IMG/VR virus record: IMGVR_UViG_3300047160_020099
Location: 97,937 to 161,936 of that record
Length of the DNA: 64,000 nucleotides
DNA from: a virus
Reading direction: 5' to 3' (one strand)
Shown one piece after another: positions 777 to 64,000 of the stretch. Each line of letters opens with the position of its first letter. The stretch's first letter is position 1. The notes beneath the pieces are model-generated. The model had not been told where the DNA came from. It was given only the letters and a program-made list of their open reading frames with translations, and ran no database searches. The translations under genes were made by a program, and so were the position numbers.

Positions 777-790
777 ACTCAGGAGGATCC

Positions 791-1577: not shown

Positions 1578-1579
1578 GC

Positions 1580-1816: not shown

Positions 1817-1877
1817 GCCAACTTTGGCGTCGTCCTGACTGCTCTGTTTGAAGTGTTAGCCGTAAGGATGCCCACCG

Positions 1878-2624
1878 ATGGGCCAATATGCTTACCCCGA
1901 TTTTCGCCTTCCTGACGTCTTCAGCAAGGGCAATACCAAGCTGGGTAGAGACGTCCTGACGTTTTCGCTTCCGGTGATAACCACGTGTCCCGGCAGCTCT
2001 TCCGTCTGTCGTGATCTCTGCTATGCCGACCGTGCCCAGAGCCGGTTCAGCACGCCCGCGGTCAGACGGTGTTACGAAGAGAACCTTGAACTCTCGAAGC
2101 GAGACGACTTTCATCTAATCGTCACAGACCTGCTATCGAGGCCGCGCCGTGACAACATCATGGTGCGTCTGCACGTCTCTGGCGATTACTATGACGAAGC
2201 CTACGCCCGAAAATGGCTCTATGTTGTCGGGCACAGCCCGCGTATCACGTTCTGGTGCTATACCCGCTCCTGGCGGGTCCCAGCCATCCGACCTGTACTT
2301 GAGGAACTCGGCGGTATGCCGAACATGAGTCTGTGGTACTCATGTGACAAGGAAACCGGCCGGCCGGTCGATTTCCATCCAGCAATCAGGCTGGCTTACA
2401 TGCGGATCGCCGAGAGCGACAAGCCAGCCTACACACCCGACCTGTACTTTCGCGAACACGCCATCCGCAAAACAGTCGAGAAGCACGTGGGCGGCACCCT
2501 GGTGTGTCCGCCCGAGAATGGCGTGAGCCACAGCGTACGCTGCACAAGCTGCCGAATCTGTGTCGTTCGTTCGGATGATACAGCCAAGCGGACGAAGGAT
2601 CGGTTTCCGCTGGAAGTATTGTAA
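1878..2624 (+). CDS. GP88-family (radical-SAM-like fold) phage protein
   Basis: GNTKLG..FSLP..TCPG..CxxxCYA, RLHVSGDYY, FWCYTRSW and C-terminal CP..CxxCxxC, the pattern of phage gene-88-type proteins. Confidence 0.65.
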   Translation: MGQYAYPDFRLPDVFSKGNTKLGRDVLTFSLPVITTCPGSSSVCRDLCYADRAQSRFSTPAVRRCYEENLELSKRDDFHLIVTDLLSRPRRDNIMVRLHVSGDYYDEAYARKWLYVVGHSPRITFWCYTRSWRVPAIRPVLEELGGMPNMSLWYSCDKETGRPVDFHPAIRLAYMRIAESDKPAYTPDLYFREHAIRKTVEKHVGGTLVCPPENGVSHSVRCTSCRICVVRSDDTAKRTKDRFPLEVL

Positions 2625-2628
2625 TACT
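2615..2628. promoter_or_regulatory. palindromic motif AGTATTNNAATACT (first of 15 dispersed copies; see findings)
   Basis: AGTATT-GT-AATACT, upstream of dcd. Confidence 0.6.
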
Positions 2629-2675
2629 CAACAACCTGGTGGCACGGAAGCCGCCAGGTCTGGAAGGAGAAACAA

Positions 2676-3371
2676 ATGAGCGATCATCAGGACCTTGACT
2701 GTTTGTTGCCCAGAGAGCAGGTTGGCAGCGAAGCCTGGCGGCGTCGCTATCAATTTGCAGGCGGAGGGGTCCTTCCGGACTGGCTGATCCGGAAGCTCAT
2801 CAAGATCGAGCCGTTCGCTGAGGCTTATAACGATTGCGTCGTCTCGTACGGCCTTGGTCACTACGGTTACGACATGCGTATTGGCTACGACTTCCGTGTC
2901 TTCACGCCGGTACACGGTGTCGTGGTTGATCCTGCCAATCTTGACGAGAGAGCTTTCGTTCATTTCGACGCCTTGCAACGAAAAGATGAACGACAGCGAC
3001 CGTATTGCTTGGTACCGCCCAATAGCTTTGCGCTTGGAGTCAGCGTCGAGGACTTCACTATTCCTCGGGACGTACTTGGTGTGTGCCTGGGGAAATCGAC
3101 CTACGCGCGTTGCGGTGTGGTAGTGAACGTTACCCCGCTGGAGCCGGAGTGGCACGGCAAGGTGACCGTCGAGATCAGCAATACCTCTCCGCTCCCAGCC
3201 AAAATCTATGCCAGCCAGGGCATTGCACAGGTTCTCTTCATCAAGGCACTTCGTACGTGCGACATCAGCTACGCTGACAAGAAGGGCAAGTACCAGGGCC
3301 AGACTTGTTTGACCTTGCCAAGAGGAGGGGGCTATGACCGCACGCAAGAAAGGCAAACGCAGCATTCGTGA
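2676..3371 (+). CDS. dcd: dCTP deaminase
   Basis: SYGLxxYGYD, GKSTYARCG, [12 protein letters not shown], EISN and [11 protein letters not shown] motifs. Confidence 0.95.
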
Positions 3372-3606
3372 CCGGCTGGCTGCGCTGGTCGAGTACGAAA
3401 TCGGTCTGTTCCCCGAAGACTTCACCGAGAGTGACCCTCTTGGCAGTTGGCTGGCAGACGACGAGATGCTCCAGTCCGACCTGGGCGAAAACATAGCCGA
3501 CGAGTTCGGACTGGAGCTTGCGGTAGATGAGCCAATCTTCCACAAAAAGGATCTCACCTTCGAGGAACTGTTGGCATGGGTAACGCAGAAGTTGAAGCCG
3601 CACTGA
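3334..3606 (+). CDS. acyl-carrier-protein-like protein lacking the phosphopantetheine Ser
   Basis: Aligns by eye with ACP along its length ([35 protein letters not shown]); DSL is replaced by DEM. Confidence 0.55.
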
Positions 3607-4313
3607 GTATCAATGAAGATCCTCGCGATACCGGCCACATCATCAGAGTGTTGCAGGTGCTTGGTTTGTGCGGCATAGACCTCGGCAAGGGCAAGGAATT
3701 CAGTGATGACGCACTGAACCTTTTTGATCAGGCAGCAAAGGAGTACCACTTGGCAGCAACCAAGAGTTACATACGGTTTGTCATGGAGGGCAAACCGTGG
3801 CACGAGGAAGTAACCTTGTGGCGTGATCAGGAGTCGGAACCGTCGAAGGTCGCCCCGCTCATCTTGGCAGCGTATGACAAGGCCTCTCACGAAGGCTCAC
3901 CAAAAGGACTATGCCGGCCCATCCACTGTGCCTCATTTCTGGTCTCGTTGTCACCGGCAACTCTGTATTTCCACTCTCGGGATGTGGCATCGCCCGCCGC
4001 CGGGCCTACCAGGGAGCAGGCCATCGTGGAAGCCATCGGCTATCCGATGCGCCCTTCACACGCCCCGTTGTCGCCGGTCCTTGACTACTTCTACATCGTC
4101 TACTGCATCAACCTGGCTGAGATGAAGGACCAGGAACTTCGGGCACGCTGGGAGGCCGAGATCCTCGGTATGACGCCGGCCTACATGAAAGAGCCGAAGG
4201 TCCAGAACCTGGAGGTCATCTACCAGCGTCAGGACATCGCCGAACTGGCCAAGTATGTCACCCGGCTGGCAAACCTGCATGCTCTGGGCGGACAGCCGGA
4301 GAAGCCGTTTTGA
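3576..4313 (+). CDS. hypothetical protein
   Basis: 245-aa ORF in the co-directional gene run. Confidence 0.6.
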   Translation: MGNAEVEAALSINEDPRDTGHIIRVLQVLGLCGIDLGKGKEFSDDALNLFDQAAKEYHLAATKSYIRFVMEGKPWHEEVTLWRDQESEPSKVAPLILAAYDKASHEGSPKGLCRPIHCASFLVSLSPATLYFHSRDVASPAAGPTREQAIVEAIGYPMRPSHAPLSPVLDYFYIVYCINLAEMKDQELRARWEAEILGMTPAYMKEPKVQNLEVIYQRQDIAELAKYVTRLANLHALGGQPEKPF

Positions 4314-24368: not shown

Positions 24369-25432
24369 TGAGACCTGATTTGTACAGGAGGCTAGAACAA
24401 CGTTCACGACGCTACGGCTTCGGCAAGGTGCTTTTCGCCCACGAGAACGAAGCCATGAGTTGTCATTACGGCGCTGACAGCATAACAGGACGGCAACGAC
24501 TCATTGTCGATATGCCGGGTGAATACCTGCGAGTCAACTGCCCGTTCTGCACGGATACCCGGCACCGCCTCTGGATCAACTATCAGTGGGGTCTTTATGA
24601 TCCAAAGATAGGCACCCTCAACCTTTGGCTAGCTATCTGTTTCAATGAAACCGCGTGCATGGACAAGCCAGGGAAGCCTGAAGAGTTGTACCGGATCGTC
24701 TATAACGATGTCACCAACCGACGACAAGTAAGAGCGGGCGATACAGTCAACAAAGGCATCAAGGTAGACAAGGCAGCCATATGCCACTTCAGGCCGGCTG
24801 GCAACGTGCTGTATCCTCTTCACGTTTTGCCACCGCATCATCGTGCGTTGGCATATCTGCGTAGTCGAGGTTATGACCCGAACCAGTTGTCTCTGGAACA
24901 CGGCGTCTCTTATTGTGCGGATGCTAGCGCTGAATTTCCCAAGGCATTCGACAGGATCATCGTTCCAATTGTGATGCGTGGAGAACTGGTTGGTTGGCAA
25001 GGCCGGTACATTGGTGAGCCACCCAAGGGCGTGATGAAGTATTACAACATGCCCGGGATGCAGAAGATCAAATACTTGTACAACTTCGATGTTGCCTCAA
25101 AATACCCATTTGTGGTGTTGACCGAGGGAGTAACAAAGGTCTGGCGAATCGGTCCGGAGGCTGTGGCACAGTTCGGCAGTACGCTGGCTGGCTTTCAGGC
25201 ACATCTGATAGATGCGACGTGGCCGACCGTCGTTGTCTACCTGGACGGCAACGCCCACGAGCAAGCTGAACAGGCCTATTGCTCGTTGCGGGCCATGCCC
25301 AACCGTGTCAAGATCCTGCTACCACCAGGGCAAGAGCCTGGTGATTTCAGCCAGGAATATAATCGTGCGTTGATACTCAATGAAGCCAGAAAGCAAGGCG
25401 TAACGTTGCGAATGGACGGAGCAGAGATATGA
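24365..25432 (+). CDS. DNA primase
   Basis: CPFC zinc finger, YLxxRG, RIIVPI..GWQGR, TOPRIM TEG and YLDG. Confidence 0.88.
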   Translation: MMRPDLYRRLEQRSRRYGFGKVLFAHENEAMSCHYGADSITGRQRLIVDMPGEYLRVNCPFCTDTRHRLWINYQWGLYDPKIGTLNLWLAICFNETACMDKPGKPEELYRIVYNDVTNRRQVRAGDTVNKGIKVDKAAICHFRPAGNVLYPLHVLPPHHRALAYLRSRGYDPNQLSLEHGVSYCADASAEFPKAFDRIIVPIVMRGELVGWQGRYIGEPPKGVMKYYNMPGMQKIKYLYNFDVASKYPFVVLTEGVTKVWRIGPEAVAQFGSTLAGFQAHLIDATWPTVVVYLDGNAHEQAEQAYCSLRAMPNRVKILLPPGQEPGDFSQEYNRALILNEARKQGVTLRMDGAEI

Positions 25433-28400
25433 GTCCGTGGTCGAATACAGTCCAGACCGTCGAACCACCCGAGCAAGCCGGTGAAACCACCAAGGCGCTG
25501 CAGACGATCGGTTACGACATGATGGAGGTCTACCCGCTCACCAGCCCAGGTATGCCAATACCTGGACCTGATTTCGTGGCCCAGGCCGTTGGTATGGGTG
25601 ACGAGTACCCAGTGATCGAAGGCACCAAGCTCGATAAATGCGTGGTGGCCTGTGGGCCTAACCTGGAGGAGCTATACAAGCAGGCCCTCTACACCGTGGG
25701 TTTCGTGTTGCCGGTCAAGGTCAAGGGCCGTCAGGTCAACACGACGTTCATACCAGGCCACCTGTGGGGCAGCGATATGGCTGGCCCCAGGCCTGCCAGG
25801 GTCATGCTAGTAGGCAAGTGGCCAGGCCCACAGGAAGTGATCGCCAACCGGAACTTGGTGGGCGAGTCAGGAGCCATCCTCATCGAAGCTCTGGAGAGCT
25901 TCGGCATCTCCTGGGAAGAGTGGAACTCCTGGTACATTACCAACCTGGTCAAACACCCGAACGTGGATCCAGCCTCGCAAAAGCCGGCCCAGTCCATTGT
26001 TCGGAACTGCCTGCCACTTCTGTCCAATGAGCTACGTTTCGTACGGCCAGACTTCGTGCTGGCGATGGGTGCCGAGGCCTACACAGCTCTGGTCGGCAAG
26101 GGCGAGGGCTCGGTGTCTCAGGCACAAGGTCGGATCTTCGAGCGTTCCTGCTTTATCCTCGATCCGGACGGCGATGGCACAGAAGGCACCTACCACTCCT
26201 ACAAGGTGATGGGTTGCATCCATCCGGCAGCTGTAGCGCATTCCGCCGATTCACTGCCTGCTTTTCGTACAGGCATCGAGCACTTCGTCAACATGGTTCG
26301 CGGGCAGGTCAAGGAAACTCAACAAGAAGAACTGCATCACCAGCTGATCTACAACGAGGCACATCTGGCCTCTGTTGTTGACACCATCCTTGACGAGGAC
26401 CCGGCGCCGTGCGTGGCCATCGACTGTGAATGGCATGGCGAGTATCCAACGGAGCCAGGTGCCTGGCTCCGTACTGTCCAGTTCAGCCACAAGCCCGGAC
26501 ACGCTTACTGCCTTGTCTTGCGCGAGGCTGGAGGCCGGCTGGCATTCCGCAGTTCGATCAAATCAACCGTTCCACATCTACGACGGCTGTTGCTGGAAGG
26601 ACGTGGACCGAAGAAGCCACGGCTGATCGGACATAGCATACGTGCTGACTTGCCGTGGCTGACACTTGGCCTGGACCGAGAGCTTGGCAAGCAGTTGATT
26701 GAGGCCAGCAATGCGCCAGAGAACGTCATCAGTCCTGACGGCAAAGTCGTCGAGATGGGCTGGCGGCGAACCAAGGAAGAGGGTGGCTTCGACACGATGC
26801 TGGCTGCACACTCGATCAGGGAGACGGACGGCAGCTACTCCCTCGACATCCTCGGTTTGCAATACTGCGGTATTCCTCGTTACGACCAGGCCCTGCAGAA
26901 GTGGAAGGCAGAGTACTGCAAAACTAACCACATGGAGCTCAAGGAGCTTGATGGATACGGGATGTGTCCAGACGACATCCTTCATCCATACGCATGCCTT
27001 GACGCCGACGTGACGCAGCAACTCTTCCCCAAGTTCAATGGCGAGCTACTCGATCACGATCCATACGACAATGACAGCCGCATACCATTCTGGATCAGTA
27101 TGCGGGCTTCGCTCGGCTTCCTCGAAATGGAAATGACTGGGCTGCTGATAGACCGGCCTCGCGGCGAGAACTTGACACAGGTTTATCTGGATGCAAGAAA
27201 TCGGTTGCGACAGAAGCTAGAAGAGCTGTTCCAGTGGCCGGGCTTCAATCCCAATTCGGCACAGCAGTGCAAGGTCGCTCTCTTCGGCGAAAAGTTCTCC
27301 GACAAGCGTGACCCGGACACCGGTGAGCTGGTCAAGATCCAGCCGCCTGGTGCGTTGCTCTTGAATCTGCTGCCCATCAAGACTGCTGGCAAGCCATCCA
27401 AGGACTGGGAACTGGTCATCAGGAAGAAGCAGGAGCATCTCTTCGGGCCATCCACCGACAAGGAGGTACTCGGCGGGCTGATTACAAGACTCAGCCCTGA
27501 CACCAAGCGGGGAGAAGGTCCCAAGTTCGGTTTCGAACACGTCACGGCCCTTCGCAACTTTCGTTTCGCTGGCCAGGTGGTCAAGTCTGTCTTGCGGGCG
27601 CCTGTGGCTGAGAATACTCAGCACAACACGAACATCAATGAGGACGGGCAGCTCGAATACGAAGAGGGTGTCCTGTCGTGCATCCATGTTGACGGCAGGG
27701 TGCGTACGCATCTGTTCCAGACCAAGGAAACTGGACGTGCCTCTTCTGCCAGGCCACCCTTGCAGAACTGGAGCAAGCGTCGGGAAAAGGCCTACAAGGA
27801 CATCCTCGGCGAATCCTACCTGTATCCACTCCGGACCATGGCCATGGCCACGCCGGGATGGGTCTTCGTGGAGGCTGACTACCGCGGTGCCGAGCTGTTC
27901 ATGATGGCCATACAGTCCGGCGACCAGAAGATGATCGAGCACTGCTTGCGGGCCAATCTCCCTGATAGCGATCCCAACCAGTACGACATCCACAGCAACC
28001 TGGCAGTCAGAGCTTTCGGTCTGAAAGTTACTGACACAGTGCCCAATGACAAGAAGAAGAACCCAGACAAGCTGACAGCATCGCAGCTGTTGAAGCTGCC
28101 GGTCGGCTCGCCGCTGCCACCTACCAAGACAGCGCTGTGGGCCATCGGCATGCCACATATCCGCGATGTGACGAAGTGTGTAGCAGCTGGTTCACGACTT
28201 CTGACTGATCGAGGCTGGATCAGAGTAGAGGAGTTATGTGGTGCATTAGGCGCTGGCGGTTCCGCCGTCGGAGACGGTTCTGTCATTTCTGATAATGGCG
28301 TGACCCCTCTTGTCGGCCTGTATAACGGCGGCGTAAAGCCGTGTATAAAACTGACAGGTGAAGACGGCTACGAACTAATTAGCAGCGAGACTCACAAGTA

Positions 28401-30180
28401 TCGAGTGGTTGACAAGCGTGGCCGATACGTATGGCGTGCGGCTGCCGATATGAAACCGGGTGACTGGGTAGCGGTTTTGGATGCCATGGAACCAAAATGG
28501 ACTGGTGACGCTACCTTCCCAGCTATCGAGGTGGAAGCCAAGACCTGTTTCAAAGACATGGACTTCCCAGAGCAGTTCAATGAGGACTGGGCGGCATTTC
28601 TCGGTTTGTATATCTCGGAGGGAAGTGCCAACCCAGTAACAGGTGTTCTTCAAATCTGCCTGGCTGTCGAAGACGACCCGACATTCGGGCTAGAGTCAGT
28701 GGCAGTTCTGAGCAGGCTGTTTGGCGGCCGGTTGAAGATCGGTTGGGTGGATTACGAGAAACACCAGAATCAGATTCGGCTTACGCTCAGCACCGTGAAG
28801 CTGGCACGCTGGCTGGATAAGTATTGTCCTGGTGATTCCTATACCAAACGTGTTCCAGATTTTGTCTTCAAGTGGCCTCCGGAACTTCAGCGGGTTTTCT
28901 TGCGGTGGCTTTACGAAGGCGACGGTTCAGTCAAGAAGAACGGAAAAGGCTTTTCCATCACGTATGCAACCGCAAGTGAAGGTCTTGCCAAAGACGTGCA
29001 GATCTTGCTGAATGGCCACGGTGTTTATGTAAGACGTTCTTCCGAACGCCGTAAAGGCTACGATCACAACTACTGGTGCTTGCAGCTCAAGTACAACGAG
29101 TCGCGTTGTCGCTTCGTCGAAAAGATCGGTTTCGTAACAGCCAGCAAGCAAAACAAGTGTGCCAATAGTGCTACTTATGCTCTGGACTGGGATACGATAC
29201 CGTATCAAGATGAGCACCTTCGAATAGTATTCCAATACTTGACTGGTGCTGTGAAAGAGAAATGCCGCGAATGTGTGCGGAAGAATCAACGTGTCAGGCT
29301 CACCCGGAATAGATTGCTTATGCTTGTGGAACAGCTCATGCAGCACCAAGATCTGCCGAGACGTGCCCAGGAAACGCTCGACCATCTTCAAAAGCTGTCC
29401 GAGAAGCCTGTTAGGTTTGAACGCGTGAAAACGATTGAAAGTGTTGGGGTGTTGCCGGTGTATGACGTGCAGACGACGGAGCCACACTCAGTGTGCTATA
29501 ACGGATATTTGACACACCAAACGATCGTGTTCGGTCTCCCATATGGAAGAGGTGATAAGGCCATTATTCGTGCCGTGGAAGAGGAAGGCACGCAGATCTC
29601 CATGCAGGATGCCGCTGCAATCCGAGCGGCGATCCTGACGGAGTATGCAGATCTTGGGCCTTACCTCGAACGTTGTCAGGCACGGGTAAAGAATCCTGGC
29701 TGGATGCGTAATTGCTACGGTCGCTACCGCCGCTTCCAGCGCGTACGTTTCGGTAACGAGGATGGCTCTGCCGAACGTGAGGCTGGCAACTTCCCGATTC
29801 AGTCCGGCGTGGCAGATGCAGTTAGCCGAGCACTGGACCATCTCTACACCTGGCCAGACCGTTATGACGAGAACGGCGTGCCGAAGTTTCGGATGGTCCT
29901 GCAGATCCACGACGCGATCCTGTTCGAAGTCCAGATACCCTGGCTGGAGTGGTTCATCGGGACCGAGGAAGAGCCAGGCGTTGTCGGGAAGTGCATGACC
30001 GAGCGTGTAGCTGTGTGGATGTGCGATCTCAACGGCGACAAGAACCTCAAAGTCGAGCCATTCCACATGGGCATCGAGACTGGCGTGTATCATCATTGGG
30101 GTGAAGGTTATGGTTACGAAGACGGCTTGGCGGCCGGCGTACCGGCAGCCTACTTGCCGAAACCCAAGAAAGCAGCCTGA
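25429..30180 (+). CDS. polA: family A DNA polymerase with N-terminal UDG-like domain, 3'-5' exonuclease domain and an intein
   Basis: UDG-like N-terminus (VMLVGKWPG, YITNLVK, HPAA); AIDCEW exonuclease; TGRASS..PPLQN; EADY..AEL motif A; K|TIVFGLPYG motif B; NFPIQS; QIHDA motif C. Confidence 0.95.
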   Translation: MSPWSNTVQTVEPPEQAGETTKALQTIGYDMMEVYPLTSPGMPIPGPDFVAQAVGMGDEYPVIEGTKLDKCVVACGPNLEELYKQALYTVGFVLPVKVKGRQVNTTFIPGHLWGSDMAGPRPARVMLVGKWPGPQEVIANRNLVGESGAILIEALESFGISWEEWNSWYITNLVKHPNVDPASQKPAQSIVRNCLPLLSNELRFVRPDFVLAMGAEAYTALVGKGEGSVSQAQGRIFERSCFILDPDGDGTEGTYHSYKVMGCIHPAAVAHSADSLPAFRTGIEHFVNMVRGQVKETQQEELHHQLIYNEAHLASVVDTILDEDPAPCVAIDCEWHGEYPTEPGAWLRTVQFSHKPGHAYCLVLREAGGRLAFRSSIKSTVPHLRRLLLEGRGPKKPRLIGHSIRADLPWLTLGLDRELGKQLIEASNAPENVISPDGKVVEMGWRRTKEEGGFDTMLAAHSIRETDGSYSLDILGLQYCGIPRYDQALQKWKAEYCKTNHMELKELDGYGMCPDDILHPYACLDADVTQQLFPKFNGELLDHDPYDNDSRIPFWISMRASLGFLEMEMTGLLIDRPRGENLTQVYLDARNRLRQKLEELFQWPGFNPNSAQQCKVALFGEKFSDKRDPDTGELVKIQPPGALLLNLLPIKTAGKPSKDWELVIRKKQEHLFGPSTDKEVLGGLITRLSPDTKRGEGPKFGFEHVTALRNFRFAGQVVKSVLRAPVAENTQHNTNINEDGQLEYEEGVLSCIHVDGRVRTHLFQTKETGRASSARPPLQNWSKRREKAYKDILGESYLYPLRTMAMATPGWVFVEADYRGAELFMMAIQSGDQKMIEHCLRANLPDSDPNQYDIHSNLAVRAFGLKVTDTVPNDKKKNPDKLTASQLLKLPVGSPLPPTKTALWAIGMPHIRDVTKCVAAGSRLLTDRGWIRVEELCGALGAGGSAVGDGSVISDNGVTPLVGLYNGGVKPCIKLTGEDGYELISSETHKYRVVDKRGRYVWRAAADMKPGDWVAVLDAMEPKWTGDATFPAIEVEAKTCFKDMDFPEQFNEDWAAFLGLYISEGSANPVTGVLQICLAVEDDPTFGLESVAVLSRLFGGRLKIGWVDYEKHQNQIRLTLSTVKLARWLDKYCPGDSYTKRVPDFVFKWPPELQRVFLRWLYEGDGSVKKNGKGFSITYATASEGLAKDVQILLNGHGVYVRRSSERRKGYDHNYWCLQLKYNESRCRFVEKIGFVTASKQNKCANSATYALDWDTIPYQDEHLRIVFQYLTGAVKEKCRECVRKNQRVRLTRNRLLMLVEQLMQHQDLPRRAQETLDHLQKLSEKPVRFERVKTIESVGVLPVYDVQTTEPHSVCYNGYLTHQTIVFGLPYGRGDKAIIRAVEEEGTQISMQDAAAIRAAILTEYADLGPYLERCQARVKNPGWMRNCYGRYRRFQRVRFGNEDGSAEREAGNFPIQSGVADAVSRALDHLYTWPDRYDENGVPKFRMVLQIHDAILFEVQIPWLEWFIGTEEEPGVVGKCMTERVAVWMCDLNGDKNLKVEPFHMGIETGVYHHWGEGYGYEDGLAAGVPAAYLPKPKKAA
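28177..29520 (+). mobile_element. intein (448 aa) with LAGLIDADG endonuclease, inserted in polymerase motif B
   Basis: Starts CVAAGS, ends VYDVQT..NGYLTHQ|T; FLGLYISEG and FLRWLYEGDG helices. Confidence 0.92.
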
Positions 30181-56434: not shown

Positions 56435-56572
56435 ATGTACGAGGGCAGGCGAGGACGTAAGCACCGCAGGCGTGGCCACCATGGCGCCTGCACGTACTGC
56501 GGTGCCTTTCATCGTCGTGGCAAGAAGCACAATGACTCCTGCCGGGGTCATTCGATCAGGAAGAGTTCGTAA
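56435..56572 (+). CDS. 45-aa Arg/His-rich CxxC peptide (absent from the ORF track)
   Basis: TAAGGAGG RBS; MYEGRRGRKHRRRGHHGACTYCGAFHRRGKKHNDSCRGHSIRKSS. Confidence 0.55.
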   Translation: MYEGRRGRKHRRRGHHGACTYCGAFHRRGKKHNDSCRGHSIRKSS

Positions 56573-56628
56573 GGAAGTATTCCAATACTCGTCGGCAAAG
56601 TGCCGACTACCCGAGAAGGAGGATTCCG

Positions 56629-58548
56629 ATGAACACTGGTCTGTTCCGTCCGGAGGGTATCAAGGACCCGCTGGCTGACACGGTCAACCGCGCCGGCGGC
56701 CTGGCCTTCCAGTACGAGAGATTCCACGAGCTGTGCCAGCTCGCCTTCGTGGGTACGTTCCCCGACGGGACGTACTACGACAGCCGCGCCGGCGTCACCC
56801 AGCTGCAGCGCCTGATTCAGCTGGCCCGCGAGGTCAATGACCCTGTGCGGCTCGCGAAGCTGTGCGTGGCCAGCCGCCACGGTGGGTTCATGAAGGACAT
56901 GCCGATGGCACTGCTCCTGCTCCTGTCCGTGCCGTCGGACGAGGAGCGTGCCCTGGAGGCTAGCGTCAAGGACAAGACGGAGGACGCTGCCGAGCGCAAG
57001 CTGGTCGCACACGACCTGGCCCGGATCTCCCGGCAGCGGGCTGACCTGTTCGGCCGCGTCTTCGACATCGTCGTGGACGATGCGAAGGTCCTCAAGACCT
57101 TCTTCCAGATGCTTCGCAGCGGCGTCTTCGGCCGCAAGTGCCTGTCCTACTGCCTTCAGAAGAAGGTGCAGAACTGGCTCAACACGCGCGGCGTCGGGGC
57201 ACTGCTGAGCGGCAGCGTCGGCGGCAAGAACGCCAAGAGCGACGACGCGACCGGTGAGTCCACCAAGCCCGCGTCGCTGTGCGACGTGCTGCGCCTGGCG
57301 CGGCCCACTCCGGTCGATGACAGCCGTCGGGCCCTGTTCGGCTGGCTGACCGACTCCAGCGTCGAGAAGTGGGCGCCGGCTACCAAGGAGCACCTGCCGT
57401 CGGCTGTGAAGCTGCTGGAGGCGTACCGCCGGGCCACCGACCCGGCGACCCAGATCAACCTGCTCCAGCAGATGCAGGGCACCTACGTGCGCTGGGACCT
57501 GCTGTCCAGCGATGCGCGTGGGCCGCTCGTGTGGCGTGAGATCGCCCGGCACATGATGGGTCCGCAGGCTCTGCGGATGAACCTCAACACGCTCATGCGT
57601 CACGAGGCCTTCCAGGACGAGGGGATCGTGGACTACGTCGTCGAGCGGATCTGTGACCCGGTCGCAATCCGCACGTCGAAGCAGTTCCCGTATACCTACT
57701 TCCTGGCTTACCAGTTCGCTGAGGCGGGCTTGCCCGACAAGCTCCGTCAGGCGCTCGCGCGTGCCGCGGAGCTGTCCTGCGAGAACATCCCGGCATTGCC
57801 CGGCCCGATCCTCATCGCGGTGGATCACTCCAGCTCGATGCAGGTGCCGGCCACCGGCAATCGCGGACCCGGTTCGACCAGCAAGCTGACCTGTGCGGCT
57901 GCGGCGGCTCTGTTCGGGGCCACTCTCCTCAAGAGGAACCCGGACAGCTGTCTGCTGCCGTTCTCGGACGGCCTGTATCCGAACTTCAGGGTCGATCCGG
58001 CCGACTCCATCCTGTCGATCAGCCAGCGGCTGAACGACCTGGCGTGGGGTGGCACGGATGTCCACCTGGCCATCACGGCGGCCCTGGGCGAGGACGTGCA
58101 AATGCGCACGGATTCCTACGACCTGAACTACGGCAGCCGTCGCGCGCCTGCTACCGGGCGTACCCTGGTGCCTCAGCGGCCGTGGGCTGGTGCGGTCATC
58201 CTCTCTGACAACCAGAGCTGGATCACCCCGTCTGCCACGCCTCGCGGCTACCACCTGTCGCCAAATCCAGGCGGCACGACGATGCTGGCTCGCCAGTGGC
58301 GTCGGCTGACCGAGCGACAGAAGGGTTCGGCCTTCCCGAATCCGAAGCTGGTCTGCTACGACCTGCAGTGCTACGGCACAACGCAGGCGCCCGAGATGGC
58401 AGACGTGCTGAACCTCGGTGGGTTCAGCGACTTCTCCTGGTCGATTGTCCACGACTTCTTCCAGGGCGTGCTGGACCTCCAGCACCGCTTCACCGCCCTG
58501 GTGGACGCTGTCGAATTGGGCAACCCGGCCACGTATGACGTCCAGTGA
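56629..58548 (+). CDS. Ro60/Rsr-like TROVE-domain RNA-binding protein with C-terminal vWA domain
   Basis: NRAGGLAF, GT..GTYY, MKDMP, ALRMNLNT, FPY; vWA MIDAS VDHSSSM, GGTD and ILSDNQ; GGFSD. Confidence 0.92.
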   Translation: MNTGLFRPEGIKDPLADTVNRAGGLAFQYERFHELCQLAFVGTFPDGTYYDSRAGVTQLQRLIQLAREVNDPVRLAKLCVASRHGGFMKDMPMALLLLLSVPSDEERALEASVKDKTEDAAERKLVAHDLARISRQRADLFGRVFDIVVDDAKVLKTFFQMLRSGVFGRKCLSYCLQKKVQNWLNTRGVGALLSGSVGGKNAKSDDATGESTKPASLCDVLRLARPTPVDDSRRALFGWLTDSSVEKWAPATKEHLPSAVKLLEAYRRATDPATQINLLQQMQGTYVRWDLLSSDARGPLVWREIARHMMGPQALRMNLNTLMRHEAFQDEGIVDYVVERICDPVAIRTSKQFPYTYFLAYQFAEAGLPDKLRQALARAAELSCENIPALPGPILIAVDHSSSMQVPATGNRGPGSTSKLTCAAAAALFGATLLKRNPDSCLLPFSDGLYPNFRVDPADSILSISQRLNDLAWGGTDVHLAITAALGEDVQMRTDSYDLNYGSRRAPATGRTLVPQRPWAGAVILSDNQSWITPSATPRGYHLSPNPGGTTMLARQWRRLTERQKGSAFPNPKLVCYDLQCYGTTQAPEMADVLNLGGFSDFSWSIVHDFFQGVLDLQHRFTALVDAVELGNPATYDVQ

Positions 58549-58554
58549 TCGAAC

Positions 58555-58592
58555 AACGGCCCGCGGCACTTCGCCGCGGGCCGTTTCTGTTT
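58555..58592 (+). terminator. Rho-independent terminator-like hairpin
   Basis: AACGGCCCGCGG/CCGCGGGCCGTT followed by TCTGTTT. Confidence 0.6.
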
Positions 58593-58609
58593 GCGCGGAG
58601 GAAGTGACG

Positions 58610-58834
58610 ATGAAACGGTGTGAAAGGTGCAATTGCGTGCTTCGTTCCAGCAACACCGAGGCGCTGTGCAGCCCATGCAAGCAAGTGGTCTCGGGCGTGG
58701 TTGTGGACGACACGCTGCGGCGAATGGAGTCGGAGCGGGCGGACCACCGTGAGCACATCCGGACGAGCCGCCTTGTGAAATCGCACATGGCGCGATATCA
58801 CGGCAGCAATGCCCGTGAGGTCTTCGACTGCTGA
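58610..58834 (+). CDS. small zinc-finger protein
   Basis: MKRCERC...LCSPC; GGAGG RBS. Confidence 0.55.
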   Translation: MKRCERCNCVLRSSNTEALCSPCKQVVSGVVVDDTLRRMESERADHREHIRTSRLVKSHMARYHGSNAREVFDC

Positions 58835-60608: not shown

Positions 60609-61697
60609 ATGCCGGACATCTTCGAACGCAAGCCTTTGCCTTCTACACCCAAGCTGTACTTCTACGCTTCGTACCAGCCGCTTACTCGCGAGCGATACTG
60701 GGACCTTTCCAGTCACAAGTTCGATGCGCAGTACACCGCTCACGACACGTTGCTCGGCTACGGTCGTTGTCTCAGCCGAGAGCACGTCGAACAAATCATG
60801 AAGTTGTGCTGGAAGGAGGAGCATCCAGACAAGGCTGACCTCGTCAAGGAAGCCCACATCAACAACTTCTTCATCTATCTCGACGAGTCGCTGGAGGAAC
60901 TGCGCAAGTGTCTGCGGGCAACCAACCAGCTAGAGCTGCTTGAAAAGGCCAAGCAGCTTACGCCAGTCGATGAAGAGCCGGCCAAGTCGGCTTTGCCAGA
61001 GGGCGTCAAGCCGATCAAGTTTACACTGAAGCACAACTCGCAGGGCAAGGACGAGCTGACCCTGACCGTCAACGGGACGCCGGTTCAGTTGCCTCTTGTC
61101 CAGAGCGTTCGGTTCAGCTTGCACGCCAGTGACCAGCTTCCACGCATCAGCCTGGACTTCGTTTCGCCAGACGTCGAGATTGATGCAGAGTGTCTGGCAA
61201 AGCTCACTCCAGAGGGCAACAGTGATAGGTATTCCCTGGAAGGGACTCACGACACGGTGAAGGTCGAGCTGACTCCTGACGGGGTCAAACCGGTCGGCGA
61301 GCAGGGCGAGGCAAAGCCGCTCATTGACTGCGGCGAGATGGATCTGGGCCGCGGCACCAATTCCACGCTGTGGTTTAACGACTACCTGGTCCTGTCCAGG
61401 GACGGTGAGCTCTACAAGATCCACTTCAAACAGTTGTGGGGTCTGAGCAATAACGTTGCCAGACTCCTGATAGCAACTGGTACGGTTCCTGGTACGGTGG
61501 TGCGAACGCGTCTTAACGGAGACGTTGTTACTCGGTCACACGCTGCCGTCATGGTGCTCAGCTACAAGGAAGACACCATGGCAGGTGCTGGCAAGCGGCT
61601 ATTGACAGACGTCGTGATGCAGTTCGGCAAGACGATCAGGGTCGATGCCGACGACCCTATCGTTGACGGCGTGCCAGACCCGGCGACTGTCATCTAA
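60609..61697 (+). CDS. hypothetical protein
   Basis: GAGGT RBS before ATG 60609 within ORF 60579..61697. Confidence 0.65.
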   Translation: MPDIFERKPLPSTPKLYFYASYQPLTRERYWDLSSHKFDAQYTAHDTLLGYGRCLSREHVEQIMKLCWKEEHPDKADLVKEAHINNFFIYLDESLEELRKCLRATNQLELLEKAKQLTPVDEEPAKSALPEGVKPIKFTLKHNSQGKDELTLTVNGTPVQLPLVQSVRFSLHASDQLPRISLDFVSPDVEIDAECLAKLTPEGNSDRYSLEGTHDTVKVELTPDGVKPVGEQGEAKPLIDCGEMDLGRGTNSTLWFNDYLVLSRDGELYKIHFKQLWGLSNNVARLLIATGTVPGTVVRTRLNGDVVTRSHAAVMVLSYKEDTMAGAGKRLLTDVVMQFGKTIRVDADDPIVDGVPDPATVI

Positions 61698-61710
61698 TCG
61701 TGAATCACCC

Positions 61711-63333
61711 ATGCTTCTTGAACCCATCCACGGAGTAGTCGTCTCTGACGGCTACTCCGATTACCTCGACGTAACTCTGTCCCATAACAGGCCTATTCTC
61801 AATCACTGTGTCGTCGTCACTTCACCCTCCGACACAGCCACCCAGCAGGTCGCGTGCAAGCACGACTGCGAGCTGGTCATTACCGCGGAAGGACACGAAG
61901 CAGCTGCTGAGTCTTTCAACGTTGACCCCATCAACGGACCAGCACAGCCGAAGTTCTTCAACAAAGGCTTGATGATTGAGAAGGGCCTGATCCAGCTTCC
62001 ACAGATTGGCTGGAGATGTATTGCCGGACAGCACGACGTCAAAGCTGCGCATATCAAGGCAGCCTCTCGACGCTTTTATCGTGGGTCACTTATTGAGCTG
62101 ACTACTCGCAGTGGCCGCTCTGTGACCGTAACACCTGATCACAAGCTCCTTACGCAACGGGGCTGGATTAGTAGCAAAGCGATCAACAAGAGCGATCACC
62201 TGTTCCACATCGACGTCACTGATACCGTCAGGACACCACAAGTAGATCAGCATCCATCCGTGTTTGGTAAGATAATCGACTCGCTCTTGATTTGCCGACC
62301 CTTCACCAAGATGAGGGCCGCGCGGATGAGTGTGAACTTCGAGTCCAAGCTTACCGATGGCGATGTCGATGTTGTATGGGCCGACAGCTTGTTGAGACGT
62401 AGGCTTGAATTGAGTCAATGCAGTAAGCAGGCTCTCTTCGAATTGTCCGACAAGTCGCTTGCTGCGCTCGTGGGCAACGGCAATCTTCATTTTGTGTTGA
62501 AGAGATTTCCTTTTGCCCAGTTGAGCCTCAATGCAGGCTTTTGTCCGTCGAGCTATGTACTCAGGGCTTTCTCTGGAGGCACGCACGACGCCAGCGCTAC
62601 TCTTGTCCCTGATCGCTATACCACCCAGCCTCAGTTGTCTGGCAATGGTTCGGTCGTCAACACCGAAGATAGCAGCCAGCGCTTTCTTGCTCTCTCCAGC
62701 GAGATAACGCCGGATGATATCGTTTCGATTCAAGTCATCCCGTGGTGCAACCATGTGTATGATCTCGCAACAGCTAGTGGATGGTATACGGCCAACGGCT
62801 TGATTATACATAACTGCCAGTTCGACGCCGATATCGTCTTCCCAGGCAACATGCGTCAGCGTCTTGGGCCGGCTCTCCACGACAAGTCCTGCCTGTACAG
62901 TACCGACCGCATGAACGTGGTCGGCTGGGCTGCCTGGCAGCGGCTCATTCAGTCTGGCTGGACTGCTCGCGGCTTTGAGTACCAGCACTACCTTACCTAC
63001 TCCATCGACAACGCTGCCATTGGTTCCCGCCTCATTTACGGCGACCACGGCTGGGTGCCTATTGGCTTTCTGCAGATTTGGCATAGCAGCACCGAGTTCA
63101 ACGGTACGAGCCGAATAAGGAGCTACCCGACTGGCTCCAACAACGCTGCTCACGACGACGTGCAGTTCGGCTTGCGTTGGGACCGTGCCAAGAGGGTTTT
63201 GATCCCTGAAATCCTGGTGGCCCACCTGCTGACAGACGACGCGAAGTACGGGGTAAACTGGAACGGGCGGAAGACCAAGAAGTTTGGGCCGGAGGCCGTG
63301 GAGGCAAAGCCCAAGAAAGAGGCTGGCAAGTAG
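61711..63333 (+). CDS. GT-A-fold glycosyltransferase-like protein interrupted by an intein
   Basis: YSDYL..TL..N, VVVT..D..T, FNKG, W.|CQFDADI (DxD), GFLQIW and DxxF motifs. Confidence 0.75.
   Translation: MLLEPIHGVVVSDGYSDYLDVTLSHNRPILNHCVVVTSPSDTATQQVACKHDCELVITAEGHEAAAESFNVDPINGPAQPKFFNKGLMIEKGLIQLPQIGWRCIAGQHDVKAAHIKAASRRFYRGSLIELTTRSGRSVTVTPDHKLLTQRGWISSKAINKSDHLFHIDVTDTVRTPQVDQHPSVFGKIIDSLLICRPFTKMRAARMSVNFESKLTDGDVDVVWADSLLRRRLELSQCSKQALFELSDKSLAALVGNGNLHFVLKRFPFAQLSLNAGFCPSSYVLRAFSGGTHDASATLVPDRYTTQPQLSGNGSVVNTEDSSQRFLALSSEITPDDIVSIQVIPWCNHVYDLATASGWYTANGLIIHNCQFDADIVFPGNMRQRLGPALHDKSCLYSTDRMNVVGWAAWQRLIQSGWTARGFEYQHYLTYSIDNAAIGSRLIYGDHGWVPIGFLQIWHSSTEFNGTSRIRSYPTGSNNAAHDDVQFGLRWDRAKRVLIPEILVAHLLTDDAKYGVNWNGRKTKKFGPEAVEAKPKKEAGK
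62017..62814 (+). mobile_element. intein (266 aa) in the glycosyltransferase
   Basis: CIAG start; TVTPDHKLLTQRGW block B; VYDLAT..Y.ANGLIIHN|C end. Confidence 0.88.
62086..62754 (-). CDS. HTH plus Vsr/DUF559-like endonuclease encoded antisense inside the intein
   Basis: IIRRYLAGES..LA..FGVD..TI..L helix-turn-helix; E..L..AL, QQAVGPYNIDIA...LGLEV and RVDYL..HGW.LIYLW. Confidence 0.75.
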   Translation of the reverse strand: MVAPRDDLNRNDIIRRYLAGESKKALAAIFGVDDRTIARQLRLGGIAIRDKSSAGVVRASRESPEYIARRTKACIEAQLGKRKSLQHKMKIAVAHERSKRLVGQFEESLLTALTQFKPTSQQAVGPYNIDIAIGKLGLEVHTHPRGPHLGEGSANQERVDYLTKHGWMLIYLWCPDGISDVDVEQVIALVDRFATNPAPLRKELVIRCYGHRAATASSQLNK

Positions 63334-63346
63334 GAGGGCTGTCGCG

Positions 63347-63568
63347 ATGAGCGTGGTGCCTATGTGGCCGTATAAGCAACTGCCAGGGGCAGGGAGGCCA
63401 AAGTTCTATTTTACGCCGTGTCTGTATTGTGACTGGCCGTGCAAGGGGCACTATGAGTTGCCGGGGCCAGTGGTGACGGGGTGGCAGTGCCCGGCGTGCA
63501 AGAGGTGTCATGCGCCAGGCGTGGTGACTTGCCCGTATTGTCCTCAAGTTGAGTATGTGAATACTTGA
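63347..63568 (+). CDS. small Cys-rich zinc protein
   Basis: GWQCPAC..C.AP....CPYC; AGGAGG RBS. Confidence 0.55.
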   Translation: MSVVPMWPYKQLPGAGRPKFYFTPCLYCDWPCKGHYELPGPVVTGWQCPACKRCHAPGVVTCPYCPQVEYVNT

Positions 63569-63634
63569 GGGTAGGATGAGAAGGCCCCGATTGTGGCAGG
63601 CAATCGGGGCCGGAACACGACTATGGAGGTAGTC

Positions 63635-64000
63635 ATGTCTGAAGAAAAGCGTACGAAGTGGTGCCCGAACTGTCAACAAGAAAAGGCAATAGAGGAGTTT
63701 TATACTGATCGGGCTAAGCCAGACGGCAAGCAGACACAGTGCAAAGTATGTGTACGGCTTAAACGGGTTGCTTATGTAACGGCCAATCCAGACAAGATCA
63801 AGGAGACTGCTCGGAAGTGCCGGCTCAAGCATCTTGAGAAACGTCGAGCATTAAATCGTGCGTGGAGTAAGGCGAATAAAGATAAAACTAGAGAGGCCGC
63901 TCGCAGGTTGCGGGCTAGAGATCCAGAAGGCCACAAGCGCCGGATGCACGAGTGGTATGTAGCCCATAAAGAAAGAGCGCGTAACAATACCCGACGCTGG
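63635..64000 (+). CDS. HNH/endonuclease VII-like protein, N-terminal part (runs off the window)
   Basis: KWCPNCQQEK..EEFY......DG....CKVC zinc ribbon; GGAGGT RBS. Confidence 0.6.
   Translation, partial: MSEEKRTKWCPNCQQEKAIEEFYTDRAKPDGKQTQCKVCVRLKRVAYVTANPDKIKETARKCRLKHLEKRRALNRAWSKANKDKTREAARRLRARDPEGHKRRMHEWYVAHKERARNNTRRW

What the first reader, a model, noticed from the sequence alone, without database searches (positions are those of the whole stretch)
62017..62814. Intein whose endonuclease is encoded on the antisense strand
Seen: the glycosyltransferase intein has normal splicing blocks at both ends, but its ~160-aa middle shows no endonuclease motif in the sense frame. The opposite strand (62754 to 62086, 222 aa, wholly inside the intein) reads as a helix-turn-helix followed by a Vsr/DUF559-like nuclease (E..L..AL, Q..VGPYNIDIA..LGLEV, RVDYL..HGW.LI.LW). 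A perfect TATAAT lies ~50 nt upstream on that strand (62808-62803). Both strands stay open across the overlap, and this is the only convincing - strand gene in the window. Established: intein homing endonucleases are normally in-frame domains. Inference: an inverted endonuclease gene is tolerated because the intein splices out its antisense translation, giving a two-strand selfish element with separately expressed homing activity.
Basis: partly seen in the sequence, partly recalled or inferred. Interest (0 to 1): 0.85.

Follow-up and report, generated by a model that had tools for sequence, protein, structure and literature searches.

The report
Intein with antisense homing-endonuclease gene
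A self-splicing protein insert (intein) in a soil phage gene carries its DNA-cutting spreading enzyme as a separate gene on the opposite strand; this is real and under selection, but a 2025 preprint already described the layout, and the new points here are the host gene and the start signals hidden in the intein's own motifs.

Summary
The + strand gene 61711-63333 carries a class 1 intein at 62017-62814. It sits next to the DxD motif of a weakly GT2-like protein, and intein-less alleles of that protein exist.

The - strand ORF 62754-62086 (222 aa) is a real gene:
- It folds confidently (pLDDT 88.5) as an HTH plus a Vsr-like nuclease. The best structural matches are I-Bth0305I (Z 9.6), a DUF559-like protein (Z 9.0) and Vsr (Z 8.1).
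- Homologues lie in the same codon-registered antisense position inside inteins in all 93 other loci examined.
- Selection acts on the antisense frame (dN/dS 0.17-0.29), not the sense frame (0.55-0.96). The sense translation of the middle has no confident fold.

Synonymous codon choice in intein blocks F and G preserves a start codon, a Shine-Dalgarno site and a TATAAT box for the antisense gene.

The architecture is not new: antisense VSR-like endonucleases in full inteins were reported for actinobacteriophages (Gosselin et al., bioRxiv 2025), and antisense LAGLIDADG inteins are cited there from 1998. This scan has also flagged the same element on many other genomes, there in MuF head genes.

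New here are the non-MuF extein, the selection test, and the embedded expression signals. Expression and cleavage remain untested.

The parts
61711..63333 (+). Host gene (540 aa precursor): a weakly GT2-like phage protein interrupted by the intein
   Evidence: ORF. Intein-less homologues of 244-286 aa. Alignment to P0156. Weak Glyco_tranf_2_4 hit on homologue P0162 (3.4e-4, below cut-off).
61711..62016 (+). N-extein (102 aa), ending ...LPQIGWR
   Evidence: 54% identity to P0156 residues 1-105.
62017..62814 (+). Class 1 intein (266 aa): Cys1, block B TPDH, blocks F/G NHVYDL...LIIHN
   Evidence: Pfam Intein_splicing 4.6e-12. Boundaries from the intein-less allele. HINT-N and HINT-C are homologous to the MuF inteins.
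62017..62217 (+). HINT N-terminal splicing lobe. About 44 of its codons also encode the C-terminal part of the antisense protein.
   Evidence: AF2 pLDDT 85-97 over model residues 1-66. The antisense stop lies 23 codons after Cys1.
62218..62688 (+). Sense-frame 'middle' of the intein: a passenger translation of the antisense gene with no confident fold
   Evidence: AF2 pLDDT below 50 for residues 123-212 and 50-70 for most of the rest. No Pfam domain. Sense-frame dN/dS 0.55-0.96 in relatives.
62689..62814 (+). HINT C-terminal lobe (blocks F, G). Its reverse complement holds the antisense -10 box, the SD-like site and the start codon.
   Evidence: AF2 pLDDT 88-97.
62815..63333 (+). C-extein (172 aa + stop), starting with the +1 Cys and the DxD motif (CQFDADIVFPG)
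   Evidence: 66% identity to P0156 residues 106-268.
62086..62754 (-). Antisense gene (222 aa + stop): an HTH plus Vsr-like (EDxHD/DUF559-type) putative homing endonuclease, in codon register with the sense frame
62626..62727 (-). Helix-turn-helix DNA-binding module (residues 10-43)
   Evidence: Pfam HTH_28/HTH_38/HTH_23 below cut-off. Profile hit to 2lvs, 3.6e-6. VIA Z about 5 to Mos1, IstA and DeoR HTH domains.
62170..62448 (-). Vsr-like nuclease core (residues 103-195) with E106, D130, E139, H143 and R158
   Evidence: VIA: 3r3p Z 9.6, 3hrl Z 9.0, 1cw0 Z 8.1. Conserved columns. Profile alignment to 3r3p, read with the D196A/H213A construct.
62752..62754 (-). Antisense ATG start codon, the reverse complement of the His codon CAT of intein block F (NHVYDL)
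   Evidence: The His codon is CAT in 45 and CAC in 10 of 55 unique loci, so it always gives ATG or GTG on the other strand.
62763..62766 (-). Weak Shine-Dalgarno-like GAGA, 8 nt before the ATG. It is the reverse complement of part of Asp-Leu (GAT CTC) in block F.
   Evidence: The family consensus is TGGAGGT at the same place. The Leu codon is CTC in 46 of 55 loci against 27% elsewhere.
62803..62808 (-). Perfect TATAAT, 54 nt upstream of the antisense ATG, the reverse complement of Ile-Ile (ATT ATA) in block G

Best explanation
This is a two-strand selfish element.

Sense strand. It encodes a class 1 intein. Its two HINT lobes (62017-62217 and 62689-62814) splice the insert out of a GT2-like phage protein next to its DxD motif. 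The roughly 157 residues between the lobes are only the stop-free, in-register reverse translation of another gene, and they leave with the intein.

Antisense strand. That other gene (62754-62086) encodes an N-terminal HTH and a C-terminal Vsr-like nuclease of the EDxHD/DUF559 kind.

Expression (inferred). The nuclease gene is transcribed and translated on its own, from signals written into the reverse complement of intein blocks F and G: a -10 box, an SD site and an ATG.

Homing (inferred). The protein cuts the intein-less allele near the GWR|CQ(F/W)DAD coding site in a co-infecting phage. Recombinational repair then copies the intein and nuclease gene together.

Shown: the anatomy, homology, fold, selection on the antisense frame, conserved start signals, and the existence of intein-less alleles. 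Inferred: transcription, translation, cleavage specificity, homing and splicing activity.
For: 1. Recurrence.
- tblastn of the 222-aa protein finds 66 phage records at 24-36% identity, E down to 2e-29.
- In all 12 annotated regions fetched, the match lies opposite the annotated head-protein CDS, and no antisense gene is annotated.
- All 73 full-length IMG/VR homologues lie in register inside an open sense frame. HINT-N flanks 73 of 73. HINT-C flanks 70 of 73, and the other three were not checked for contig truncation.
- A profile search finds 6371 protein clusters at E<=1e-3 and 1137 at E<=1e-30.

2. Selection.
- In 11 informative pairs, differences concentrate at antisense codon position 3.
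- Antisense dN/dS is 0.17-0.29 in ten pairs. For the window against L005 antisense dS is saturated, with pN 0.32 and pS 0.75. Sense dN/dS is 0.55-0.96.
- Amino-acid identity is always higher in the antisense frame. For the window against L005 it is 53% versus 33%.
- The polarity flips at the borders of the overlap.

3. Fold.
- The antisense protein gives pLDDT 88.5 and pTM 0.72.
- The top Foldseek hit is 3r3p, probability 1.00.
- VIA gives Z 9.6 (rmsd 3.1, 91 aligned) to 3r3p, 9.0 to 3hrl and 8.1 to Vsr.
- The sense middle has pLDDT below 50.

4. Catalytic residues. E106, D130, E139 and H143 are invariant or nearly so. D130 and H143 align to D196 and H213 of I-Bth0305I.

5. Expression signals.
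- An SD core lies at -18 to -5 in 42 of 56 unique loci.
- The block F Leu codon is CTC in 46 of 55, P = 4e-18.
- A perfect TATAAT lies at -60 to -31 in 24 of 58 loci, against 0.2 expected.
- In the block G codon table, all 17 loci with an Ile-Ile pair at the two tabulated positions that gives TATAAT use ATT-ATA, expected at about 5.5% from Ile usage elsewhere.
- Five loci carry TTGAC(A/T/G)-17-TATAAT, and a sixth has TATATT.
- The window and its nearest relative L005 both keep TATAAT at -54.

6. Target. Intein-less alleles of the same extein exist.
Against: - There is no RNA, protein or cleavage evidence for any member.
- The window copy has only a weak SD (GAGA) and no recognisable -35 or extended -10. 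The consensus scan reports no promoter.
- The window copy departs from the family's 'FGGxWH' signature (EVHTHPRGPH).
- The fifth residue of the EDxHD motif (D222 of I-Bth0305I) has no clearly conserved counterpart in the alignment.
- P0001 itself does not reach any Pfam nuclease model.
- The loci share ancestry, so the counts of conserved signals are not independent events.
Confidence: 0.82

Rival explanations
1. The antisense protein is functional but is not this intein's homing enzyme. It might be a DNA-binding regulator, or a nuclease used in phage-phage or phage-host conflict, that merely shelters inside an intein.
For: The function is inferred only from fold and context. The HTH modules resemble regulators and transposase DNA-binding domains. 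The fifth EDxHD residue could not be mapped.
Against: Every full-length close homologue found sits inside an intein, which is the distribution expected of a homing enzyme and not of a general-purpose gene. The HINT and nuclease parts occur together in unrelated insertion sites: several MuF sites and the GT-like gene. The nearest solved relative is a proven homing endonuclease with the same domain order (PMC3239194).
Confidence: 0.08
2. The window copy is a recently inactivated relic. The intein persists by vertical descent, and the antisense ORF is still open only by chance.
For: An in-register antisense frame stays open by chance fairly often in this genome (P about 0.07). The window copy has weak SD and -35 signals and a deviant motif after E139.
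Against: Between the window and L005 the antisense frame keeps 53% identity against 33% in the sense frame, and differences pile up at antisense position 3 (86/60/131). E106, D130, E139, H143 and R158 are all retained. The TATAAT box and the ATG are kept in both copies.
Confidence: 0.08
3. The sense-frame middle of the intein is the functional domain, and the antisense similarity is only its shadow.
For: The sense frame also shows a recurring motif (AEDFHGDG). PHROG 15127 aligns to part of it.
Against: That motif is the exact codon-by-codon mirror of the antisense catalytic motif VAVEvFGGxWH (inference). Sense dN/dS is 0.55-0.96. The AF2 model has pLDDT below 50 there, against 88.5 for the other strand. 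No Pfam family matches.
Confidence: 0.02

Closest known systems
Inteins with an anti-sense VSR-like homing endonuclease in actinobacteriophages (Gosselin, Arsenault, Gogarten, bioRxiv 10.1101/2025.01.02.630785)
   Same: A full intein whose HEN region encodes a VSR-like endonuclease on the antisense strand. The sense middle has no recognisable structure. The AF model of the antisense protein matches Vsr 1CW0 and HHpred matches 3R3P. My closest cultured relatives are actinophages: Sejanus at 36% and the Gordonia Vividuovirus phages at 32%.
   Different: - The preprint covers only PhagesDB actinophages. [quoted passage not shown] It calls the architecture rare.
- Here the extein is a GT2-like protein of an uncultured soil phage.
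- The family extends to Pseudomonas, Salmonella, Escherichia, Cronobacter and Aggregatibacter phages and to more than 1000 metagenomic clusters.
- The preprint text holds no mention of promoters, ribosome-binding sites, start codons or synonymous-site analysis.
EDxHD / Vsr-like homing endonucleases: I-Bth0305I (Taylor et al. 2011, PMC3239194) and the 'fractured gene' split inteins (Dassa et al. 2009, as cited)
   Same: N-terminal HTH/NUMOD DNA-binding repeats followed by a C-terminal Vsr-like catalytic domain, associated with self-splicing elements of phages. I-Bth0305I is the best structural match.
   Different: I-Bth0305I lies in a group I intron. The Dassa cases are free-standing genes between the halves of split inteins. 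Here the gene is inverted inside a contiguous intein and shares codons with it. Sequence similarity is marginal (profile E 0.038). The last motif residue could not be matched.
Antisense LAGLIDADG endonuclease ORFs in inteins (Synechocystis DnaX; Gorbalenya 1998, Gogarten 2002, as cited)
   Same: An endonuclease gene on the strand opposite to the intein that contains it.
   Different: A different nuclease family. Those papers were not read here and are known only through the citation.
Canonical bifunctional inteins with an in-frame LAGLIDADG domain, for example the one in this window's family A DNA polymerase (25429-30180)
   Same: A HINT splicing domain plus a nuclease travelling together. It is inserted at a conserved catalytic motif.
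   Different: In those inteins the nuclease is a domain of the same polypeptide (Pfam LAGLIDADG_3 and Intein_splicing on one chain). Here it is a separate gene product from the other strand.
'Hidden' out-of-frame HNH endonuclease in the ShiLan insertion of phage methylases (Arsenault et al. 2025, PMC11855218)
   Same: A homing endonuclease read from a frame other than that of the host gene, while the host frame stays open.
   Different: Same strand, an HNH nuclease, and no splicing domain.

Membership tests
Class 1 intein (HINT domain) | Sequence match to the intein splicing domain above the curated threshold | tested here: met
   Pfam PF14890: 46.4 bits against a cut-off of 35.8, E 4.6e-12.
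Class 1 intein (HINT domain) | Cys/Ser at position 1, block B TxxH, C-terminal His-Asn, and Cys/Ser/Thr at +1 | tested here: met
   C103, TPDH...IIHN368 and C369, read. The positions are conserved in the alignments.
Class 1 intein (HINT domain) | A precise insertion relative to uninterrupted homologues of the host protein | tested here: met
   P0156 reads GWRC-QWDADI without interruption. The two exteins align at 54% and 66% identity.
Class 1 intein (HINT domain) | Protein splicing activity | not testable with these tools
   Needs expression of the precursor.
Intein with anti-sense VSR-like homing endonuclease (Gosselin et al. 2025) | A complete endonuclease ORF on the antisense strand within the intein | tested here: met
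   ORF 62754-62086 lies wholly inside 62017-62814.
Intein with anti-sense VSR-like homing endonuclease (Gosselin et al. 2025) | The antisense product has a Vsr-like fold, and the sense middle has no recognisable structure | tested here: met
   The same matches (1CW0, 3R3P) are reported in the preprint.
Intein with anti-sense VSR-like homing endonuclease (Gosselin et al. 2025) | Homology to the actinophage examples | tested here: inconclusive
   Homologous to antisense ORFs in Sejanus and in Gordonia Fosterous, Vivi2, Angelicage and Affeca. These phage names are not in the preprint's main text for the VSR type, so identity of the sets could not be checked.
EDxHD / Vsr-like homing endonuclease family | An N-terminal HTH/NUMOD DNA-binding region before the nuclease domain | tested here: met
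   One HTH in the window copy and one to three in relatives. The architecture is as described in PMC3239194.
EDxHD / Vsr-like homing endonuclease family | A Vsr-like catalytic fold | tested here: met
   VIA Z 9.6 (3r3p), 8.1 (1cw0) and 7.9 (1vsr) over residues about 100-209. The Z values are only moderately above the background the tool quotes.
EDxHD / Vsr-like homing endonuclease family | The composite catalytic motif E-D-x-H-D | tested here: inconclusive
   E106, D130 (= D196), E139 and H143 (= H213) are conserved. The counterpart of D222 aligns to a non-acidic column.
EDxHD / Vsr-like homing endonuclease family | Site-specific cleavage of the element-less allele | not testable with these tools
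   A biochemical assay is needed.
Pfam PF18741 MTES_1575 (PD-(D/E)xK REase-like) | A match to the family model | tested here: inconclusive
   4 of 5 family members match, best E 4.7e-6. The window protein itself does not.
Glycosyltransferase family 2 (the extein) | A match to a GT2 model, and a DxD motif | tested here: inconclusive
   The window exteins have no Pfam hit. Homologues P0162 and P0188 hit Glyco_tranf_2_4 at 3.4e-4 and 0.041, below the cut-off. A D-A-D sequence directly follows the +1 Cys.

The most novel reading that the evidence does not exclude
The strict codon register and the persistence of this element may have a single cause. The conserved C-terminal splicing motifs of the intein (blocks F and G) would double, on the other strand, as the promoter -10 box, ribosome-binding site and start codon of the endonuclease gene. 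Splicing competence and nuclease expression would then be physically inseparable and would be inherited and selected as one cassette.

Host sigma-70-type signals would let the nuclease be made early, before the late head or GT gene is transcribed through it in the opposite direction.

The window copy would then record a jump of this cassette from MuF head genes into an unrelated GT-like gene.
Probability: 0.45. Interest if true: 0.6.

Novelty: new member of a known kind. Interest (0 to 1): 0.45.

Why it matters
- Annotation. These nuclease genes are invisible to standard annotation. None of the 12 GenBank regions fetched lists one, yet the family has more than a thousand diverged clusters.
- Dual coding. 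It is a clean natural case of long sense/antisense dual coding, roughly 670 nt, in which it can be shown which strand carries the selection at each stretch.
- Mobility. The window copy shows the cassette is not tied to MuF head genes. That bears on how inteins switch host genes.
- Testability. The embedded promoter, SD and start signals give a concrete hypothesis for how an inverted homing endonuclease is expressed.
- Limits. The basic architecture is already published as a preprint and was flagged repeatedly in this scan, so this is a confirmation and extension, not a discovery.

Tried and rejected
- blastn of 61000-64000 against phage records found no match.
- phmmer of P0001 against PDB sequences found nothing meaningful.
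- The search for related loci with the single protein found nothing. The alignment was needed.
- GC by codon position does not discriminate between the frames.
- The sigma-70 consensus scan finds no promoter-like site in 61500-63500.
- Sequencing runs: no RNA holder is listed, only soil DNA metagenomes with partial word shares.
- Laying the contigs of four runs gave only short fragments, no joint across the intein, and no information on an intein-less form in the same samples.
- Full-text literature searches for 'opposite strand', 'antisense', 'reverse strand', 'MuF' and 'opposite orientation' with 'intein' gave nothing relevant. The search 'inteins' plus 'actinobacteriophages' then found the preprint.
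- The exteins alone gave no Pfam hit.
- The alignment used for the sense-intein fold (A3) started at residue 104 and so lacks Cys1 of the window intein. This does not affect the conclusion.
- The midpoint-rooted FastTree places the window and L005 next to Sejanus and the Gordonia phages. No support values were examined, so the direction of the extein switch is only suggested.
Full report
**What is in the sequence**

The window is the last 64 kb of a 161,936-bp linear IMG/VR virus record, estimated 78% complete. Near-identical words occur only in soil metagenomes.

The + strand gene 61711-63333 encodes a 540-aa precursor. Pfam finds only Intein_splicing, at 46.4 bits against a cut-off of 35.8. 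A search with the C-extein finds 35 homologues of 104-286 aa, nearly all long enough to span both exteins and too short to hold the intein.

The best full-length one aligns to both exteins at 54% and 66% identity. It reads GWRC-QWDADI straight through the point where the window has GWR-C...IIHN-CQFDAD. It has Cys1, block B TPDH, a terminal His-Asn and a +1 Cys.

The extein is only weakly GT2-like. The window exteins have no Pfam hit, and two homologues hit Glyco_tranf_2_4 below the cut-off. The intein sits directly before a D-A-D motif.

The - strand ORF 62754-62086 gives 222 aa. Its codons are in exact register with the sense codons: sense position 1 is antisense position 3, and positions 2 coincide.

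**Is openness more than chance?**

No. TTA, CTA and TCA are the sense codons that would be antisense stops in this register. They make up 1.2% of codons in long + frames here. A 222-codon open run therefore has P about 0.07, and 11 of the 30 other long frames scored contain one.

One example is a 746-aa - ORF opposite the Ro60-like gene. It has no Pfam match, while the + frame does. The case for a real gene must rest on homology, selection and fold.

**Homology and recurrence**

- tblastn of the 222-aa protein against 50,697 phage records finds 66 records at 24-36% identity, with E down to 2e-29. They are Mycobacterium, Gordonia, Pseudomonas, Salmonella, Escherichia, Cronobacter and Aggregatibacter/Haemophilus phages.
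- In all 12 regions fetched, the match lies on the strand opposite an annotated head-morphogenesis, MuF-like or 'capsid maturation protease' CDS. No record annotates the antisense gene. Both frames are open in each.
- The word-indexed protein search returned four relatives, all from short contigs where the gene caller had lost the host gene. All are antisense inside inteins.
- An exhaustive profile search found 6371 clusters at E<=1e-3 and 1137 at E<=1e-30. Three that I sampled were again antisense inside MuF inteins. One MuF gene carries two inteins, and the second also overlaps a called antisense ORF with a weak MTES_1575 hit.
- A scan of IMG/VR gave 74 loci. The 73 substantial matches (70 full length, three partial) lie in register inside an open sense frame. 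HINT-N flanks 73 of 73 and HINT-C flanks 70 of 73. The 74th is only a 35-residue HTH match.
- Ten of these exteins were scanned. Eight are Phage_Mu_F, one is Phage_min_cap2, and one had no hit.
- Only the window and its relative L005 sit in the GT-like gene.
- The HINT lobes of the window intein align with those of the MuF inteins. The splicing domain and nuclease gene therefore travel together.

**Which strand is selected**

I used Nei-Gojobori estimates on codon alignments of 11 informative pairs. The pairs were within Gordonia phages, within Salmonella/Escherichia phages, Pseudomonas against Cronobacter, and the window against L005. Differences always rank antisense position 3, then 1, then 2.

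| Measure | Antisense frame | Sense frame |
|---|---|---|
| dN/dS | 0.17-0.29 (ten pairs) | 0.55-0.96 (all eleven pairs) |
| Amino-acid identity, window vs L005 | 53% | 33% |

For the window against L005, antisense dS is saturated (pN 0.32, pS 0.75), so no ratio is given. Its differences per antisense position are 86/60/131. Amino-acid identity is higher in the antisense frame in every pair.

Sliding windows along two host-gene pairs show sense position 3 as the variable one in the exteins and HINT lobes. There is a switch to sense position 1 exactly across the middle of the intein, with a mixed zone where the nuclease C-terminus overlaps HINT-N.

**Fold**

With a 67-sequence alignment, AlphaFold2 gives the antisense protein a mean pLDDT of 88.5 and pTM 0.72. 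The model has an HTH, a helical linker and an alpha-beta-beta-beta-alpha-beta-alpha core.

| Structure | Method | Score |
|---|---|---|
| 3r3p, I-Bth0305I catalytic domain | Foldseek | top hit, probability 1.00, E 0.013 |
| 3r3p | VIA-align | Z 9.6, rmsd 3.1, 91 aligned |
| 3hrl, DUF559-like | VIA-align | Z 9.0, rmsd 1.9, 85 aligned |
| 1cw0, Vsr | VIA-align | Z 8.1 |
| 1vsr, Vsr | VIA-align | Z 7.9 |
| HTH domains, residues 1-53 | VIA-align | Z about 5 |

Sequence evidence points the same way. The family profile weakly finds 3hrl, 3r3p and Vsr at E 0.008-0.065. Pfam MTES_1575 matches 4 of 5 relatives.

E106, D130 and E139 are invariant or nearly so, and H143 and R158 nearly so. In the profile alignment, D130 and H143 fall on the two alanines of the D196A/H213A crystal construct. 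E139 falls on the extra conserved acidic residue noted for that family. A counterpart of D222 was not identified.

The sense intein was folded with 36 relatives. It has confident HINT lobes (pLDDT 85-97) and a middle below 50. The sense-frame motif AEDFHGDG is the codon-by-codon mirror of the antisense VAVEvFGGxWH. That mirror relation is my inference from the two consensus sequences.

**Expression signals: the part that adds to the literature**

The family's N-terminus fixes the start codon. In the window it is the ATG at 62754-62752, the reverse complement of the His codon of block F (NHVYDL).

- Start codon. Across 55 unique loci the His codon is CAT in 45 and CAC in 10. It therefore always gives ATG or GTG on the other strand.
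- Shine-Dalgarno site. The Leu codon two or three positions on is CTC in 46 of 55 loci, against 27% of Leu codons elsewhere in the same genes (binomial P = 4e-18). This yields TGGAGGT about 8 nt before the start. An SD core is present in 42 of 56 unique upstream regions.
- The -10 box. A perfect TATAAT lies 31-60 nt upstream in 24 of 58 loci, against 0.2 expected. A match of at least 5 of 6 lies at -60 to -51 in 28 of 58, against 0.8 expected. It is the reverse complement of Ile-Ile or Ile-Val in block G.
- Codon choice behind the -10 box. In the block G codon table of 56 unique sites, all 17 loci with an Ile-Ile pair at the two tabulated positions that gives TATAAT use ATT-ATA, and the window and L005 do so one codon further on. 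Ile-Val pairs mostly use ATT-GTA. Elsewhere in the same genes, ATC is the commonest Ile codon at 51% and ATA is at 19%.
- Fuller promoters. Five loci have TTGAC(A/T/G)-17-TATAAT and a sixth has TATATT. Many have TGTTATAAT, an extended -10.
- The window copy. It has the TATAAT at 62808-62803, also kept in L005. It has only GAGA as an SD and no good -35. The generic scan calls no promoter.

These counts are inflated by shared ancestry. The loci are, however, diverged to 25-35% protein identity, where unconstrained synonymous sites would be randomised.

**Comparison with what is known**

[quoted passage not shown] Their structure matches are to Vsr 1CW0 (Z 10.6) and an HHpred hit to 3R3P. They cite Gorbalenya 1998 and Gogarten 2002 for antisense LAGLIDADG inteins, and Dassa 2009 for VSR-like genes in split inteins.

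Taylor et al. 2011 define the EDxHD family, with N-terminal NUMOD/HTH repeats and a C-terminal Vsr-like domain. The architecture is therefore known.

The preprint's text does not mention promoters, ribosome-binding sites, start codons or synonymous sites.

This scan's earlier notes hold the same words in 61 findings from at least 56 genomes. The eight shown were all in MuF head genes, which agrees with my independent results.

**Placement**

In a midpoint-rooted FastTree of the nuclease proteins, the window and L005 sit beside Mycobacterium phage Sejanus and the Gordonia phages. This suggests, without tested support, that the GT-like insertion derives from the MuF lineage.

**Verdict**

This is a new member of a known kind: a new extein and an uncultured soil phage. 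Two additions go beyond the preprint. The first is quantitative evidence that selection acts on the antisense frame. The second is the finding that blocks F and G of the intein carry the antisense gene's -10 box, SD and start codon through constrained synonymous codon choice. Expression, splicing and cleavage remain to be shown.

Noticed in passing
window 25429-30180 (+): A 1583-aa protein combines a UDG-superfamily domain, a 3'-5' exonuclease and a family A DNA polymerase. It is interrupted by a canonical intein with an in-frame LAGLIDADG_3 domain. The same phage therefore carries both a classical intein and an antisense-nuclease intein.
   Followed up: partly
window 56548-58788 (-) versus 56629-58548 (+): A 746-aa antisense ORF lies opposite the Ro60/TROVE-like gene. 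The + frame has Pfam hits to vWA_Ro60 and TROVE. The - frame has none. This shows that long in-register antisense ORFs arise by chance in this genome.
   Followed up: partly
L020 3-2948 (-), also L021: A metagenomic MuF-like gene carries two inteins a few residues apart. The queried nuclease homologue P0009 lies opposite one of them. A second called + strand ORF with a weak MTES_1575 hit lies opposite the other.
   Followed up: no
L001 689-4003 (-), Mycobacterium phage Sejanus gp8: The closest cultured relative has its intein at a different site (KVWV|C...VVHN|CTIDGKTRPSHW) from the common HPN|CRC site. This indicates several insertion sites within MuF-type proteins.
   Followed up: no
L022 and L023, sense frame 692-3724 (-) in L022: A portal-MuF fusion protein (Pfam Phage_portal plus Phage_Mu_F on one chain) carries the intein with the antisense nuclease gene.
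   Followed up: no
L018 2363-4192: On a 7.6-kb contig, between the scaffold and portal genes, the gene caller called two + strand ORFs (412 and 190 aa) instead of the - strand MuF gene with its intein. This shows how the element corrupts automatic annotation.
   Followed up: partly
window 62086-62217: About 44 codons encode confidently predicted structure on both strands. On the sense strand they are HINT-N strands with pLDDT above 90. On the antisense strand they are the last helix and strand of the nuclease, with pLDDT 81-95. The antisense C-terminal motif (Y/L)(R/V)VIRG mirrors the sense block B motif TPNHP. That mirror relation is my inference from the alignments.
   Followed up: partly
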